Positions 6,138 through 15,031 of a DNA stretch of 64,000 bases are shown here, one piece after another. Under the pieces are notes generated by a model. The model had not been told where the DNA came from. It searched no databases and saw nothing but the letters and a program-made list of their open reading frames with translations. The translations under genes were made by a program, and so were the position numbers. The stretch is taken from IMG/VR virus record IMGVR_UViG_3300021387_000452. One strand, given 5' to 3'. The stretch comes from a virus (Duplodnaviria > Caudoviricetes). The stretch's first letter is position 1. The number at the start of each line of letters is the position of its first letter.

Positions 6138-6797
6138 CTACCAATCAGCTGCAATATAAATCTTTTGCTTATCCCAGTCTGTAGTCTCTAGAATCTTACT
6201 GAACTCAATAAACATTTCACATACTTTATAAAATAGAAATGCATCTTCAGAGCCTAGAGCAGATGCGCAAATATCGTCAGCTTCATCCATCATCTCATCA
6301 GTAAATAGACTATTCTTAAATGTAAGATACGCTGATCTATCACCGCCCCACCTTGCGGTATTACCATGATATTCAAGCGGAGAATGCTCTATCTCAAGCC
6401 CCTTGTCAGTAAAGTTCTTTTCAACCATTAAGATAATCTTCTTAGACATAGAGACTAGATCTTCAAGTTGTGATTTAGTCACTTCTACATCTTTCCCATA
6501 GTCTTCATCTTTATAGCCGAAGTAGCTTACTATCCACCAGAGCTTTCTAAAATACGCAACTTCTTCACCGTCTCCCAGACTACTTGGATAGCTATTTCTA
6601 ATTAAATAGCTTTCGATAATATCTGCAAGACAGTCTTCAAATGAAATATGATTATCTACAGTATAGCTATAAAGTTCTTCAATCGCAGTATTTAATGATT
6701 CATTGCTAGAACTAGATAGCTCAGTCAGTATATCAGAAAGCTGCTTTTCTACATGCTTGTCTACTGGCTTACGATGAAAGTAAACATCTAATCCCAT
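6138..6797 (-). CDS. phage hypothetical protein (MGLDxY...YFRK...W family)
   Basis: MGLDVY start, EVAYFRK and terminal W are typical of a widespread phage family. Confidence 0.7.
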   Translation of the reverse strand: MGLDVYFHRKPVDKHVEKQLSDILTELSSSSNESLNTAIEELYSYTVDNHISFEDCLADIIESYLIRNSYPSSLGDGEEVAYFRKLWWIVSYFGYKDEDYGKDVEVTKSQLEDLVSMSKKIILMVEKNFTDKGLEIEHSPLEYHGNTARWGGDRSAYLTFKNSLFTDEMMDEADDICASALGSEDAFLFYKVCEMFIEFSKILETTDWDKQKIYIAADW

Positions 6798-6809
6798 AAT
6801 GAACCTCCA

Positions 6810-7679
6810 CTAAAGATCTTCTTGATTGAGAGAGAATTTCTCGCCACAGAAATTAGCTTCGTCACTGATAATGCTTGCAATTCGCATAAGTGTCTGTTTA
6901 TAGAACTTATTAAAGATCTGGTTACTTACAAGCTTACCAGTCTTTGTGTTATACATAATTCTGGATAGTTCTTTCTTTCCCATCTGATACACAATGAATA
7001 GTCTAGCTATATTATACTCACTCATTGGGACTTGTGTATTACCAGCCTTTAATACAATGAAATTTGACTCTTCTTTACTCATCTGCTGAAGTATGTATTT
7101 AATTCTATTTTTATAATCAACACTACATACATTCAGCCCAGAAATAGAGATCATGTCGAGAAGTGTACAACCAGTATCTCCCTTCACTGGAGAATCCAAG
7201 ACTAACAGATCATCTTCATGACCTGATTTTTTATATGTCTGCCACATTGCATTGCGTAGTAGCCAGCAGTGAATTGCAGGCTCTAACTTATAGTTAGCAT
7301 TAAATCTTAATATGCCATCATTAAGCATTACCTTAAATGCACAGCTTTGATAGAAATCATCAAATGTCATTCTTGCTCTAAGCCGTGTTTGACATGGTTT
7401 ATAATAAATGCTAGAAGCTTTTCGTTTTAGAATATCGAGCACTTCATCAGTAGACATAACAAGATATTTGAGATTTTTCCTTTCAATATCTGTCATATTT
7501 GCTAAGTCAAACTGATTAGTGTTTATCATTAAATCTGATAATCTGCTAACTGCTTTATATTTGCTAGAGCTAGATGTCAAGCTATCTAGCTGATCTTTGC
7601 TGCAAGTGGATAGATTGATCTTATATCTGTTTTCAATATCTCTAATAGATTGTGATTTTGAACTAGATACGTATGTCAT
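6810..7679 (-). CDS. divergent sigma70-like transcription factor
   Basis: Region-2-like DDFYQSC..VML...RFN.NYKLEPAIHCWLLRNA; LDSPVKGD...LLDMI resembles the sigma SLD.P..GD...L.D.I linker; C-terminal helix pair. Confidence 0.55.
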   Translation of the reverse strand: MTYVSSSKSQSIRDIENRYKINLSTCSKDQLDSLTSSSSKYKAVSRLSDLMINTNQFDLANMTDIERKNLKYLVMSTDEVLDILKRKASSIYYKPCQTRLRARMTFDDFYQSCAFKVMLNDGILRFNANYKLEPAIHCWLLRNAMWQTYKKSGHEDDLLVLDSPVKGDTGCTLLDMISISGLNVCSVDYKNRIKYILQQMSKEESNFIVLKAGNTQVPMSEYNIARLFIVYQMGKKELSRIMYNTKTGKLVSNQIFNKFYKQTLMRIASIISDEANFCGEKFSLNQEDL

Positions 7680-9854: not shown

Positions 9855-10208
9855 TTAGTCTCTCCGAAATGTAACTCTTGTATGATGATCACTATTATGA
9901 TCAGACTCAGAACTAGTTACCATAAAATCATAATAGTGCCTCAAGCCTGGTGTAAGAGCTCCGCCACAAGAATCATTTGCAATTCTAAAGATTTCTGAAT
10001 CAGCTAGCTTTGTCTTAAGATCCAAAAGCCTGTGGATATTCTTGATGTCATAAATTGACCCGTCAAGAATATCATTATCACCAAGATACTTGGATAAAGT
10101 ATTTAGTGACCAAATGTAGTTTGTTGCTGTAGTGTATTTCAAACCACAGCGATTCATAAGATAATTGCGGAACTTTGAACGAGCAATGCGATCATCACCT
10201 AACGACAT
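9855..10208 (-). CDS. stand-alone helical (integrase SAM-like / restriction-enzyme N-terminal-like) domain protein
   Basis: FRNYL....L...TA.NY...L, SIYDI.....L, L.HY.DF pattern. Confidence 0.45.
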   Translation of the reverse strand: MSLGDDRIARSKFRNYLMNRCGLKYTTATNYIWSLNTLSKYLGDNDILDGSIYDIKNIHRLLDLKTKLADSEIFRIANDSCGGALTPGLRHYYDFMVTSSESDHNSDHHTRVTFRRD

Positions 10209-10215
10209 ACTAAAG

Positions 10216-10298
10216 TCTCCTTATAGAGAGTGGTTTATAAGTAGTGAACAATTCCCTACTCTACTTTTCTAAGAATCTATATACCGGATTCTTAGGTT
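10216..10298 (-). promoter_or_regulatory. early cassette 7 (degenerate)
   Basis: Degenerate -35/-10; hairpin 10240-10260 GGAA-TTG-TTC; AAGGAG. Confidence 0.55.
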
Positions 10299-10326
10299 GA
10301 ACTAAACAAGAAATTCAAGTATTTAT

Positions 10327-10347
10327 GATGGGCTTTTATAGCCCATC
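10327..10347. terminator. stem-loop
   Basis: GATGGGCT/AGCCCATC after 10360 gene. Confidence 0.5.
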
Positions 10348-10359
10348 TATAATGAGGTA

Positions 10360-10725
10360 TTATCTCCAAATGTAAATACCGTTCTGCTTGGAGATAGCAC
10401 CAGTACGTATCTTCGTATTCATGATCTGCCAGGTGTATTTTGGTATTCTACGCTGAACCTCTGCAACCTGTTCGTCTGTAAGCTCTTTCCCATCGTTCTT
10501 ATCTTTTGCAATCTGCGTAAGAACTTTTGCATCAGACTTATTGAACCCCATCCTATTCTTATAGATCGTTCTATTGATAGCAACTTCGTTTTCGATCTGG
10601 TTGCTAAATACGACCATAAGACCATCAATAGCGTTATTGGCTGTAAGCTCGATCCCAGCTTTAATGTTATGAGCAAGATCGGTTTTGTTGCGAAGGGTAA
10701 CGTTGGTATTGATTGTAGTTGTCAT
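10360..10725 (-). CDS. early hypothetical protein (GFNKxD...L...Q...KY..Q family)
   Basis: Start moved to MTTTIN after AGGAG. Confidence 0.7.
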   Translation of the reverse strand: MTTTINTNVTLRNKTDLAHNIKAGIELTANNAIDGLMVVFSNQIENEVAINRTIYKNRMGFNKSDAKVLTQIAKDKNDGKELTDEQVAEVQRRIPKYTWQIMNTKIRTGAISKQNGIYIWR

Positions 10726-10733
10726 ATCTAAGT

Positions 10734-10858
10734 CTCCTATGGTAGAACCTCTACTGTTCTTGGTCTTAGCTAAGGAACCATTCCTTAGCTTTATGAGGAT
10801 CTTATAAACCAATCTAAGATCTGTGTAAAATAAAATCACCGTCTATTATGGTGATTTT
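10734..10858 (-). promoter_or_regulatory. early cassette 8 with upstream terminator
   Basis: AAAATCACC..GGTGATTTT; TTTACA-N17-TATAAG; perfect hairpin AGCTAAGGAA-TGG-TTCCTTAGCT (10768-10790). Confidence 0.85.
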
Positions 10859-11074
10859 CTAAAGCTTAGAAATCAGCATGTCATCTGCAATTTCATTGCA
10901 TTTGTCTATCATCTCTACACTTACACAGAGAAGATGATCATAGTTGCTAGACGTAGCATCTTTATAGTAAGCATCTCTATCAGCCTTAGAGAATTTGCAT
11001 TCTTTCATAGCCTTCATAACATAACCCATAACACAGAAAGCATTTCCATCTATACCAACGAGATCGTATTTCAT
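10859..11074 (-). CDS. small phage protein (LVGxDGNAF family)
   Basis: MKYDLVGIDGNAFCVMGYV; AAGGAG RBS. Confidence 0.75.
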   Translation of the reverse strand: MKYDLVGIDGNAFCVMGYVMKAMKECKFSKADRDAYYKDATSSNYDHLLCVSVEMIDKCNEIADDMLISKL

Positions 11075-11080
11075 GATGTT

Positions 11081-11166
11081 CTCCTTTAATAAGCTAGGGA
11101 CCCATTCCCTAGCTTTGTTGAGTTGATTATAAACTCTGTTTAATTTGTCGTAAACAGAAATCACCG
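11081..11166 (-). promoter_or_regulatory. early cassette 9
   Basis: CGGTGATTTCTG-TTTACG-N17-TATAAT; hairpin 11091-11115. Confidence 0.85.
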
Positions 11167-11167
11167 A

Positions 11168-11371
11168 TTATTGACGTTTACCGTCATTGTAGCGAGCAAC
11201 CAGTGTAGACTCTGATTCCCAGAACTGACCCATGAAATCATAGCGGCCGTTCTGTTTGTAGACTGACGAATAGCTACCTTTGGAAATCTTACGAGCGAAA
11301 TTCGTAGCATCGCGTTTGCTATCAAAGCTCTGTTTTGTTCCGTTTGAGAATACTGAAAAGATCGTTGTCAT
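11168..11371 (-). CDS. early hypothetical protein
   Basis: Sole gene of cassette 10. Confidence 0.7.
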   Translation of the reverse strand: MTTIFSVFSNGTKQSFDSKRDATNFARKISKGSYSSVYKQNGRYDFMGQFWESESTLVARYNDGKRQ

Positions 11372-11379
11372 GATGTCGT

Positions 11380-11490
11380 CTCCTATGAGTCTTATCTAAG
11401 GAAGTCCATCTTCCTTAGCTTTGTTGAGTATCTTATAAGCTAAGATTCTCTTTGCGTAAAATAAAATCACCGTAATAGTCGGTGATTTTT
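11380..11490 (-). promoter_or_regulatory. early cassette 10 with upstream terminator
   Basis: AAAATCACCG..CGGTGATTTT; TTTACG-N17-TATAAG; hairpin 11396-11418. Confidence 0.85.
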
Positions 11491-11514: not shown

Positions 11515-11622
11515 TAATCATATCACAAGCACACTCTTTTCGTAAACAAATTTCACCATAAATTTTATGCATATTGTGCGGTGATTTTTATTTACATCAA
11601 GTTCAAACTATGATATTATAAT
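11515..11622. promoter_or_regulatory. divergent early promoter pair
   Basis: Minus: GGTGAAATTTG-TTTACG (11541-46)...TATGAT; plus: CGGTGATTTTTA-TTTACA (11591-96)-N17-TATTAT. Confidence 0.7.
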
Positions 11623-11652
11623 GGTAGCGCTCAGCCGCCACGGGTCGACACA

Positions 11653-12015
11653 GTGACGTATACGTCTATGGAGAATGTTATGCATTTAAAGAGTATTGTG
11701 TTTGATTGTCCTATAATATATAGAGGTACAGTTCAACCAATTAAGAATGAGATCCATGCTATTGAGCTTAATGAATACATTAAACGATATTTACATGAAT
11801 CTTGTAAGTCGTATGTTATAGTTGTTTCATATAATGAAGTGCAATACGTAATTAGTGCTATTGTTCACATGACTAATAAGACTAAAATGGCAGCTATTGT
11901 GAACAACCTATCAGAAGCGCTTAATGCAAGTGTAAGTATTTTGAGGGTGACTCATGATAGCGGTGAGTTTAATATAGAATGCATATCTTCCTCAAATAGT
12001 ATGGCAGTCATGTAA
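11653..12015 (+). CDS. hypothetical protein (likely start MHLKS after GGAG)
   Basis: Plus-strand ORF downstream of early-type promoter. Confidence 0.65.
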   Translation: MTYTSMENVMHLKSIVFDCPIIYRGTVQPIKNEIHAIELNEYIKRYLHESCKSYVIVVSYNEVQYVISAIVHMTNKTKMAAIVNNLSEALNASVSILRVTHDSGEFNIECISSSNSMAVM

Positions 12016-12044
12016 AAATATTTCCCAATATCTATATTATTAGT

Positions 12045-12385
12045 AATGTGTAGCAGCTTATGCTGTGTTGTTTAGCAGTCTTTGAAATAGAGTCAATTTT
12101 CTTAAGTCATTTATAGGTGAACCGCGTGCGGGATGGACATCCTATACAATACATAAGCCTAATGAACCTTACACGAGACATACGGGATGATTTTAGAATT
12201 ATAGACTTTATGACAATGAGTGATTAACAACTTAGTTGAGTAGCTATGATTTAACTAGTAATTTATGAGCTGAAGTGGCATTGATCACTATAGTAATACT
12301 TTGTGAATCAGTGCTTTCGACGGCAGATTTTGTTGTACATATTTTCTGTCAAAATTAAGATGCTCACTTTGATCTGAGTAAAGAA
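12045..12385 (+). ncRNA. candidate structured non-coding RNA (~340 nt)
   Basis: No ORF >=60 aa; at least 6 stems with many G-U pairs on the plus strand; ATATCTATA motif at 12028; terminator at 12389. Confidence 0.55.
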
Positions 12386-12388
12386 GTA

Positions 12389-12417
12389 CCCTCTATAGAA
12401 ATAGACTCTATAGAGGG
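12389..12417. terminator. terminator between convergent units
   Basis: CCCTCTATAG/CTATAGAGGG. Confidence 0.7.
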
Positions 12418-12426
12418 CTTGCAGTA

Positions 12427-14916
12427 TTAGATCTTCGTTAGTAGAATCTCTTGATCGATAGCGCTTATTCCATCTATTGTAATAGCAATATTTTTATTCT
12501 TAGCCCACCCTGTAGTAATGATTGAATCATCATCTGCATTGAACATGTCCATGTATAATACTCCGAGCAAAGTGTTCTTTGTTTGATCTGATGAGTTAAT
12601 TTCTACTATAGGTCTAAGAGATGTGCTACATATTAAATGATTACGATCAGTTATTATTGAAGCCTTATCTAGAAGCTGAAGCTTTTCAGATACGCTGTAG
12701 AATAAATCATCTCCTGCATATTCTGTCTTAGGCTTGATTGCGAATGTGTAGTACATATAAGCTTGGTTTACTGCATAATCTATCTGATGTACTGTTAAAC
12801 ATGATTTTTTAATGAATGAATTTAATAGATTTTCTGATGACTCGTTTGATCCATCTAGTGCGCATATCCCTAGTTTGTAGTAAGCATTAGTTATTTCATA
12901 TCCACCAGAGCCATCTGGCTTGCTTATTGTAAACACTGGCGTTCTAAGACTGTATTCAACTTTGTCTTTTGGTTTTGACATTTTAAGACTTACTAATGGT
13001 GATAGCTTGTCGTACTCATCTATGAATTTATTGTATGGGAATGTATCTTTATCAAGAGGTACGCCTGATGTTGATACTACTTTGAGTGATACTGGAATAT
13101 TGAAATTAGATCCTACAGTATTCACGTATCTATTATCTCTGTCATATTCGTACATAGTCTTGAAAGCGAGTAGTTTAGAGTCTATCTTTTTGTTAGATAG
13201 CTGAGCTACTAAAGCGCTTTCTACGTTATGTGCTAGCAAGTAGTCAGTAGCTGGCCTCATTGTGATTTCTGTACTCTCGACATCATTAAGGTTTAACCAT
13301 AAATAGCCGATCTCTCCATCGTAGTTATACAGTCTTATGTATTTACTTAGATCTACATTACTGTCAACAATGTCTCCATTCTCATTAAACTGAACCATTC
13401 TAATGCCTCTATTGCTTCCATTAAACACTGGCATAAGAAGAGTTGCTGGCCAATAACTGTCTTCGCTTAATCTGTCGACCTGTTTAGGAAATGATCTAGC
13501 GTATAGTCTGTTGTTCAAGTAAAGCTCAATAATAATCTTAGTAGTATTACCGCCAGAAAGCTGTAGCACCATTGGCGTATTAGGTACTAGTACTTTGTTA
13601 CCAGCTGGAGTTAGATAATCTGTGAAGTGTTTGCTTGAATCTTCTTCATCTACTAAAGATGTAAAATCTGATATTGATATAACTACATTATCTTCATACG
13701 GGCTCTTGTATATATTATTAGCAAATACACGATTATTATTTTCAAATATCTCTACTCTAACGCCAGTAATAACGTCTACGTTTAATATCTGACTCAATGA
13801 TAGCTTATATTTATTACCGTCTGCGCCATCAGCTACAGCATAAAATGTAAAATATCCCTGCTCATTTGAAGCAATAGAATATGAAGCTCTTGGGTCGCCT
13901 TTTATTAGTTTTAACCTAACTTCATCATCTTTTCTGTTCCCTATAAGTACTTGACAAAAGTTCATGCCAATAGCAACATCTCTATCTACAGAAGCATGCC
14001 ATAATTTATTTGAGCCTCTCTTATAGTTATTAGCTACTTGAATAGGGATCTGGAAATTATAACCAGCAGTATGAGAGTAGTCATCTTGGACGATAGCAGC
14101 GTATGTCTCATCATATTTCGGAACTACTTTTACAGTAAGATTGAATGTATCAAACTCTTTTTTAGAGCTCATGTTTAGCTCATAGCTATTATCTACTTTG
14201 TCTAGCTTAAATATATCTTCATTAAACTCAATCGATTCTTCAGTTGAACTATTACTCATAGTACCAGAGACTGTACAGACATCACTGCCAGCTGGTAATA
14301 TCATAGGCCCAGCTAATGCTATCGTTATCTCATCTTCTGTAGTAGTGATACTTTCTTTGTTAAAGCTATCTCCAAAGAAATTAAGAAAGCTTTTAATCTT
14401 CGTGTTAGTACCGTCAAAATAATCTTCGTTTATAATTCGTGTATCGAAATCGTATATGCTATCAATAGTAATGCCGTCTGGTAATCCATTTGGAAATACT
14501 TTTTTGATCTTGTCTTCAGTCCATGTTGTCTTATCTGCTGTGTAAGACATGTACAATGTATTATTATAATATAAGTTCATTATAACATTGCCAGTAGAAG
14601 AATCTTTCTTAATTCCAATAGAAAATCCTTCATAGTACTCGCTAAATGATTCTACTCTAATATTAAAATTGAACTCTTCAGAAGCTTGATGCTCTCCACT
14701 AGCAGCACGTCCATCAATGTTATTAATTACAAACTTGTAATTATTGCCTTCATGATTATTACATTCTGTAAATACTTCTTCTCTAACTATTCCATTTGTA
14801 TCAACTCCAATACTGAACTTAGCATGATTCATGAAATAATTAATGAAGTTCTTTGTCGCCTTTGATGATATACTATATCTATTAAATAGAACTCTGAGTT
14901 TTGCTTGATTATTCAT
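12427..14916 (-). CDS. large putative virion structural protein (paralog of 22331..24364)
   Basis: Shared GxxGNxYK..., QLSGG and LRTxxFxI...YKxGxCxLDG blocks; GGAGG before MNNQAK. Confidence 0.6.
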   Translation of the reverse strand: MNNQAKLRVLFNRYSISSKATKNFINYFMNHAKFSIGVDTNGIVREEVFTECNNHEGNNYKFVINNIDGRAASGEHQASEEFNFNIRVESFSEYYEGFSIGIKKDSSTGNVIMNLYYNNTLYMSYTADKTTWTEDKIKKVFPNGLPDGITIDSIYDFDTRIINEDYFDGTNTKIKSFLNFFGDSFNKESITTTEDEITIALAGPMILPAGSDVCTVSGTMSNSSTEESIEFNEDIFKLDKVDNSYELNMSSKKEFDTFNLTVKVVPKYDETYAAIVQDDYSHTAGYNFQIPIQVANNYKRGSNKLWHASVDRDVAIGMNFCQVLIGNRKDDEVRLKLIKGDPRASYSIASNEQGYFTFYAVADGADGNKYKLSLSQILNVDVITGVRVEIFENNNRVFANNIYKSPYEDNVVISISDFTSLVDEEDSSKHFTDYLTPAGNKVLVPNTPMVLQLSGGNTTKIIIELYLNNRLYARSFPKQVDRLSEDSYWPATLLMPVFNGSNRGIRMVQFNENGDIVDSNVDLSKYIRLYNYDGEIGYLWLNLNDVESTEITMRPATDYLLAHNVESALVAQLSNKKIDSKLLAFKTMYEYDRDNRYVNTVGSNFNIPVSLKVVSTSGVPLDKDTFPYNKFIDEYDKLSPLVSLKMSKPKDKVEYSLRTPVFTISKPDGSGGYEITNAYYKLGICALDGSNESSENLLNSFIKKSCLTVHQIDYAVNQAYMYYTFAIKPKTEYAGDDLFYSVSEKLQLLDKASIITDRNHLICSTSLRPIVEINSSDQTKNTLLGVLYMDMFNADDDSIITTGWAKNKNIAITIDGISAIDQEILLTKI

Positions 14917-15031
14917 TTTGTATCTCAGCCTCCAGATTGTATAATTACTGTATCTCTTGTAGAGAAAGTTCTGATATCTAATCTTTTGATATTCGCTACA
15001 GAGTCTACAGAGCATATATAATGAGTAACAC

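What the first reader, a model, noticed from the sequence alone, without database searches (positions are those of the whole stretch)
12028..12417. Unannotated ~340-nt highly structured plus-strand RNA with its own promoter-like motif and terminator
This is an ORF-free gap in a tightly packed genome. Nested stems form a long rod: GTTGTT(12067)/AACAAC(12226), TAGAGTC(12088)/GACTTTA(12204), AAGTCATTT(12104)/GGATGATTT(12185), TATAGGTG(12112)/CATCCTATA(12138). Further hairpins follow: TTAGTTGAGT(12232)/ATTTAACTAG(12249), GGCATTGATCAC(12277)/GTGAATCAGTGCT(12303), GGCAGA/TCTGTC, GCTCA/TGAGT. The non-Watson-Crick pairs are mostly G-U on the plus strand, which points to RNA-level selection. The region is preceded by ATATCTATA-TTATTAG, the motif found before virion genes. 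I do not recognise tRNA, tmRNA, RNase P or intron hallmarks. It could be a novel phage ncRNA (packaging RNA, anti-defence decoy, or partner of the upstream 11653 protein).
Basis: partly seen in the sequence, partly recalled or inferred. Interest (0 to 1): 0.78.

Follow-up and report, generated by a model that had tools for sequence, protein, structure and literature searches.

The report
Late phage RNA with rRNA-like module
An uncultured rumen phage keeps, behind a small protein gene, a conserved folded RNA of about 330 bases that matches no catalogued family; one of its modules always travels with that protein and resembles a piece of ribosomal RNA, but neither its expression nor its job has been shown.

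Summary
The structure is real and on the plus strand. A 196-nt rod at 12051-12246 folds at z = -4.0 (minus strand -1.1). It keeps its length (195-197 nt) and 98% of its pairs in related phages, mostly by Watson-Crick/G·U swaps. Its 101-nt core is more conserved than third codon positions of the neighbouring gene. No Rfam family, tRNA or conserved small ORF fits.

A second module at 12269-12324 (short stem, AA/GA internal loop, cap of variable length) recurs with compensating changes behind the same protein family and the same ATATCWAT promoter motif in three distant phage lineages whose other RNA parts differ. One relative lacks gene and RNA together. The module is in register with the internal loop of 23S rRNA helix 89, but rRNA-built covariance models did not detect it, so mimicry is only a lead.

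Best guess (0.35): a late non-coding RNA that binds the upstream protein through this module. Covariation is weak with so few lineages, and no transcript was seen.

The parts
11591..11619 (+). Host-type sigma70-like promoter (TTTACA-17-TATTAT) upstream of the protein gene; a read-through mRNA would carry the RNA as its 3' part
   Evidence: kept in L106, which lacks gene and RNA
11680..12015 (+). 111-aa protein of an undescribed phage family (start at ATG 11680, as called in all homologues); beta-hairpin/helix/beta-hairpin core; candidate partner of the RNA
   Evidence: AF2 pLDDT 86.7; best fold match T4 Dmd Z 6.0, rmsd 2.6, 55 residues, weak
12028..12036 (+). Phage promoter-like motif ATATCTATA; ATATCWAT lies 7-27 nt after the protein's stop codon in all lineages examined
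   Evidence: promoter function inferred
12051..12246 (+). Module 1: 196-nt imperfect rod whose ends pair
   Evidence: z -4.0; 63 pairs, 98.4% of cells paired in 6 sequences
12099..12199 (+). Nearly invariant apex of the rod: multiloop with an inner hairpin (12126-12147) and conserved single strands; two copies each of UGAACC and CGGGAUG
   Evidence: 93-96% identity against 71% at third codon positions of the upstream gene in L011
12269..12324 (+). Module 2: stem GCUG/CGGC, 2x2 AA/GA internal loop, G-C pair and a variable cap (12277-12316); in register with the internal loop of 23S rRNA helix 89
   Evidence: kept with compensating changes in L011, L109, L138/L139, L153
12325..12350 (+). Conserved tail AGAUUUUGUUG...UUUUCUGUY; pairing uncertain
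   Evidence: a similar stretch lies in L143
12388..12418 (-). Terminator hairpin of the convergent ORF 12427-15015; probably also ends the plus-strand transcript
   Evidence: present in L106 without the RNA

Best explanation
The stretch encodes a two-module non-coding RNA of about 330 nt. SHOWN: a conserved plus-strand fold, and a module 2 that sits behind the same protein family in four distant lineages. INFERRED: the phage-type promoter at 12028 starts a free transcript at about 12043-12051 late in infection, ending near the shared hairpin at 12388-12418; the same sequence also forms the 3' end of the earlier mRNA for the 111-aa protein. INFERRED MECHANISM: module 2 is the binding site of the upstream protein, so gene and RNA are a cognate pair. 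The late RNA would titrate or carry the protein, with the rod as a stable scaffold bearing a second, lineage-specific recognition surface. If the helix-89 likeness is real, the protein's other target would be the host 50S subunit, and the RNA would switch that interaction off by mimicry, as ribosomal-protein leaders do (own knowledge).
For: The protein gene is followed by ATATCWAT and a gap holding module 2 in 4 of 4 lineages with DNA in hand: window/L005-L012, L109, L138/L139 and L153. These proteins are only 27-37% identical to the window's. The pattern arises by chance about twice in the 128 kb of both window strands. Gene and RNA are both missing in relative L106, with a junction between about 11652 and 12376. 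A 95%-complete related genome has an RNA locus without module 2, no hit for the protein family and no match to the strict module pattern. Module pairs change together: G-C to A-U in L138, G-C to A-U and U·G to C-G in L153, G-C to G·U in L011. In L011, L109 and L138 the rod's first paired base lies 7-8 nt after ATATCWAT, as expected if transcription starts there.
Against: Co-occurrence rests on four presences and two absences, and adjacent genes travel together anyway. The protein has no recognisable RNA-binding fold or family. Pattern and pairing of module 2 were defined by eye. Rod covariation is not above shuffles: 2 double changes, and 103 of 500 shuffles reach the score. The rod, the most conserved part here, has no detectable homologue in the distant lineages.
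Confidence: 0.35

Rival explanations
1. The RNA is a decoy that imitates parts of 23S rRNA domain V, above all helix 89, and soaks up a host factor or defence nuclease that recognises the ribosome. The upstream protein is incidental.
For: The pattern derived from the phage modules finds helix 89 (E. coli 2464-2486) in the same register. Shuffled rRNA gives a match in 6 of 300 trials at gap <=20 and 42 of 300 at gap <=90. L153 shares the rRNA's C·C mismatch. In a tile scan over both rRNAs, the best tile for the window's apex is 23S 2301-2370 and for the core of L138/L143 it is 2371-2460, i.e. consecutive segments. By eye, that core resembles helix 74 and its flanks.
Against: Covariance models built from rRNA H89 and H83-H86 do not report these RNAs even at E <= 10. 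Tile scores are matched by reverse-complement controls (z up to 6.6), and the homologues L010, L011 and L109 choose other tiles. HMM tiles and 24-nt tiles show nothing. Two variable sites of the apex (12152, 12155) fall on bases that are invariant or nearly so in the rRNA alignment. AA/GA loops are common motifs.
Confidence: 0.2
2. It is a cis-acting 3' region of the mRNA for the 111-aa protein (stability or processing), not a free RNA.
For: It lies directly behind the gene, downstream of a sigma70-like promoter, with no terminator found between. It is lost together with the gene.
Against: A promoter-like motif is conserved between gene and RNA in all lineages. In L143 the same motif and an RNA follow an unrelated gene and a terminator-like hairpin. 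An invariant 100-nt apex is more than stability needs.
Confidence: 0.12
3. It is a 6S-like RNA that binds host RNA polymerase and shuts off host-type promoters late in infection.
For: A rod of 195-197 nt with paired ends is the size of 6S RNA, and late expression would fit.
Against: No Rfam 6S hit at E <= 10. There is no symmetric central bubble between two long stems; the open region is an asymmetric apical multiloop. Module 2 is unexplained.
Confidence: 0.08
4. It is a DNA-level element (protein-binding repeats, a single-strand origin) or a degenerate inverted repeat, not a functional RNA.
For: The apex holds two short direct repeats. RNA-like gaps in relatives adjoin long AT-rich tracts (L109, L153, L154). 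Double-sided covariation in the rod is scarce.
Against: Of 14 transitions at Watson-Crick pairs, 11 give G·U and 3 give A·C on the plus strand (p = 0.03). Strand asymmetry of z, a conserved promoter motif and covariation in module 2 all fit RNA.
Confidence: 0.1
5. It is a virion or packaging RNA.
For: The promoter motif also precedes genes for proteins carrying the LExR tag (44451, 25721 on minus), which an unchecked note reads as a capsid-loading signal.
Against: A relative lacks the RNA entirely, which does not suit an essential packaging role. No likeness to pRNA in Rfam.
Confidence: 0.06

Closest known systems
23S rRNA helix 89 internal loop (E. coli 2464-2471/2479-2486); H89 contacts the A-site tRNA acceptor arm and helps form the uL16 cleft (PMC3950693)
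   Same: 3' strand UCGACGGC identical; AA/GA loop and closing pairs in the same register; L153 also has the C·C mismatch
   Different: The window has U·G and G-C at 2466/2467 and a 40-nt hairpin in place of the 7-nt loop; the outer H89 stem is missing; the rRNA-built model gives no hit
mRNA elements that mimic an rRNA site to bind a ribosomal protein (S8, L1, L10, L20 leaders; own knowledge)
   Same: A possible rRNA-like module next to a protein gene, suggesting titration by mimicry
   Different: It lies 3' of the gene behind its own promoter motif, the protein is not a ribosomal protein, and binding is not shown
6S RNA
   Same: Rod of about 196 nt with paired ends
   Different: No central bubble between two long stems, no Rfam match, extra 3' module
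Large phage ncRNAs GOLLD and ROOL
   Same: Structured orphan RNA in a phage; ROOL is from the rumen (own knowledge)
   Different: Much shorter, no Rfam match, modules exchanged between lineages
T4 Dmd antitoxin fold (PDB 5hy3_B), for the upstream protein
   Same: Residues 43-108 align at Z 6.0, rmsd 2.6 over 55 residues
   Different: 14% identity, Z within the range of common arrangements, extra N-terminal beta-hairpin; shows no function

Membership tests
Any Rfam 15 family (incl. 6S, tmRNA, RNase P, SRP, GOLLD, ROOL, Y RNA, HEARO, group II motifs) | Match to the covariance model at the gathering score | tested here: not met
   No hit in the window; none inside 12028-12417 at E <= 10; none in the homologous gaps
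6S RNA | Rod of 180-200 nt with paired ends | tested here: met
6S RNA | Large central bubble between closing and terminal stems | tested here: not met
   Apical asymmetric multiloop instead
6S RNA | Binds sigma70 holoenzyme and templates pRNA | not testable with these tools
   needs an in vitro assay
tRNA / tmRNA | Cloverleaf or tRNA-like domain | tested here: not met
   ARAGORN finds none; UUCGACGG has no GGGG acceptor 5' of it
23S H89 mimic | Internal-loop sequence and pairing register of H89 | tested here: met
   chance 2-14% in shuffled rRNA
23S H89 mimic | Whole helix recognised by an rRNA-built covariance model | tested here: not met
23S H89 mimic | Binds an H89 partner | not testable with these tools
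   needs a pull-down
23S H83-H86 mimic (rod apex) | Same junction geometry and invariant bases | tested here: not met
   No covariance-model hit; helix lengths differ; variable sites fall on conserved rRNA bases
Dmd-like antitoxin (upstream protein) | Fold and sequence kinship | tested here: inconclusive
   Z 6.0, no Foldseek or Pfam support

The most novel reading that the evidence does not exclude
This phage clade encodes interchangeable RNA modules copied from the functional core of 23S rRNA (H89 here; H74 and the A2451 loop in relatives), paired with a new protein family that binds both the ribosome and its RNA mimic: a protein-RNA switch or decoy system acting on the host ribosome.
Probability: 0.15. 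Interest if true: 0.9.

Novelty: new variant of a known kind. Interest (0 to 1): 0.62.

Why it matters
It adds an uncatalogued structured RNA and an uncatalogued protein family that appear to form a unit in rumen phages with genomes over 200 kb. The module and the protein are small and can be tested together in vitro without the host. If the helix-89 likeness holds, it would be a free RNA that mimics part of the peptidyl-transferase neighbourhood, a phage strategy I did not find described in the literature searches run here.

Tried and rejected
Expression: contigs of three gut metatranscriptomes cover 9960-11382 but not 12028-12417. Contigs show presence, not absence, and a late or tightly folded RNA may be missed, so no verdict.

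Homologue searches that gave only chance matches or nothing: the 17-mer in metagenome contigs; patterns in viral contigs; genome contigs; GenBank phages; protein-led scans of viral contigs. The weak R1 hit in G001 (L155) lies inside a coding gene.

Ideas dropped: group II intron domain V, SRP helix 8, permuted tmRNA and HEARO (recalled resemblances; partner strands missing, no Rfam support); 16S h45 and h3-h5 likeness (not above controls); rod apex as an H83-H86 mimic; IS200 TnpA-like protein (no HUH motif, no such fold among the hits); k-turn below module 2 (fits the window family and L109, not L138 or L153); small peptide; antisense target inside the window (no 11-mer complement).

No whole genome was available. 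R-scape was not available.

Full report
CONTEXT. The window is 35% G+C with mostly minus-strand genes, among them a family-A DNA polymerase, NrdD and SHMT. Close strains occur in sheep and cattle gut runs, and a cluster mate of the upstream protein lies on a 215-kb contig. It has no close relative among GenBank phages. I read it as an uncultured large rumen phage; the host is unknown.

THE OBSERVATION. The gap 12016-12426 is non-coding and has no Rfam or ARAGORN match. Folded whole it is only mildly stable (z -1.8). The signal sits in a rod at 12051-12246: z -4.0 on plus, -1.1 on minus. Homologous loci were reached through the upstream protein. They give four independent lineages (window/L005-L007, L009, L010, L011/L012) in which the rod is 195-197 nt with plus-strand z -2.2 to -4.0. 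Of 378 cells at 63 pairs, 98.4% pair, against 35-47% for slid partners, but only two pairs change on both sides, which shuffles match. Transitions at Watson-Crick pairs favour G·U over A·C by 11 to 3 (p = 0.03). The 101-nt apex is 93% identical to L011, against 71% at third codon positions of the upstream gene (p = 3e-5). So selection on an RNA fold is well supported by conservation and strand bias, and weakly by covariation.

CORRECTIONS. The rod extends to 12051/12246, which displaces the hairpin at 12232/12249, whose 3' arm is deleted in L009. The hairpin at 12388-12418 is a minus-strand terminator of the convergent gene. It survives in L106, a relative with 62% identity in that gene's C-terminal half, where the leader joins almost directly to the terminator and both the 111-aa gene and the RNA are missing.

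DISTANT RELATIVES. A profile search gave proteins at 22-38% identity. Three were traced to DNA: L109, L138 and L153. Each gene is followed within 13-27 nt by ATATCWAT and by a long non-coding gap. The rod model does not hit these gaps. L109 and L138 also share a different core of about 190 nt, found again in L143 from a 204-kb, 95%-complete relative; it shows clear covariation. That relative has no hit for the protein family and its RNA locus lacks module 2. The loci are therefore modular: promoter, lineage-specific rod, optional second core, module 2. Module 2 is the part that tracks the protein (four presences, two absences).

rRNA LIKENESS. Module 2 matches the internal loop of helix 89 in register, with a chance of 2-14% in shuffled rRNA. 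The apex and the relatives' core score best on consecutive 23S segments, 2301-2370 and 2371-2460. Against this, reverse-complement controls reach the same scores, homologues disagree, and covariance models of H89 and H83-H86 find none of these RNAs. I reject the apex as an H83-H86 mimic and keep H89 as a lead.

THE PROTEIN. It starts at 11680 and has 111 aa, with no PHROG match and no significant Pfam match among family members. The AF2 model from 42 sequences is confident (pLDDT 86.7). Its best structural match is T4 Dmd at Z 6.0, too weak to assign function. Some homologues carry the domain twice.

MECHANISM. Shown: the fold, its conservation, the recurrence of module 2, and joint absence of gene and RNA in one relative. 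Inferred: late transcription from ATATCWAT (the rods of L011, L109 and L138 begin 7-8 nt after it), binding of the protein to module 2, and titration or carriage of the protein. I put this at 0.35. Rivals are an rRNA decoy for host factors (0.2), a 3'-UTR element (0.12), a DNA-level element (0.1), a 6S-like RNA (0.08) and a virion RNA (0.06); the remainder is for functions not considered. The chance that it is a functional structured RNA of some kind is about 0.85.

VERDICT. Observation partly confirmed; interpretation partly supported. It is an uncatalogued, modular phage RNA linked to an uncatalogued protein family. Interest 0.62.

Noticed in passing
L109:5640-5830, L138:6905-7095, L139:2935-3125, L143:1405-1630: A second conserved RNA core of about 190 nt with clear covariation and no Rfam match. 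By eye its 3' part resembles 23S helix 74 with flanks 2059-2063 and 2449-2453; contiguous-sequence tests were not significant.
   Followed up: partly
L154:5930-7000 (G001:C1 about 145900-147000): About 1.1 kb non-coding, G+C-raised, RNA-like stretch behind a 144-aa ORF with faint likeness to the protein family (hhalign probability 3%); no Rfam match.
   Followed up: partly
L153:6420-8250: Behind the most distant protein homologue: promoter motif, module 2, a second G+C-raised stretch at 6790-6950, then 1.2 kb of AT-rich DNA with short repeats, possibly an origin.
   Followed up: partly
window 9960-11382: The minus-strand gene cluster next to the finding is present in three gut metatranscriptomes of two studies.
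   Followed up: no
window 6810-7679 (-): 289-aa ORF that reads like a sigma-factor region 2 (my impression, no family hit); 60% identical in G001; a candidate reader of the ATATCWAT motif.
   Followed up: partly
window 11625-11651: Short leader after the sigma70-like promoter, partly conserved in L106 up to the deletion junction.
   Followed up: no
L154:470-650: Short reading frame resembling the N-terminal RRXRR part of IscB, apparently a remnant (from memory, not tested).
   Followed up: no
L138:485-1590: Cluster of eight tRNA genes 4.4 kb upstream of the protein-RNA locus, one with an irregular anticodon loop.
   Followed up: no
window 17465-44399: Several unrelated ORFs begin with a LE(A/R)RIARLE-like tag, already noted by earlier readers.
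   Followed up: no
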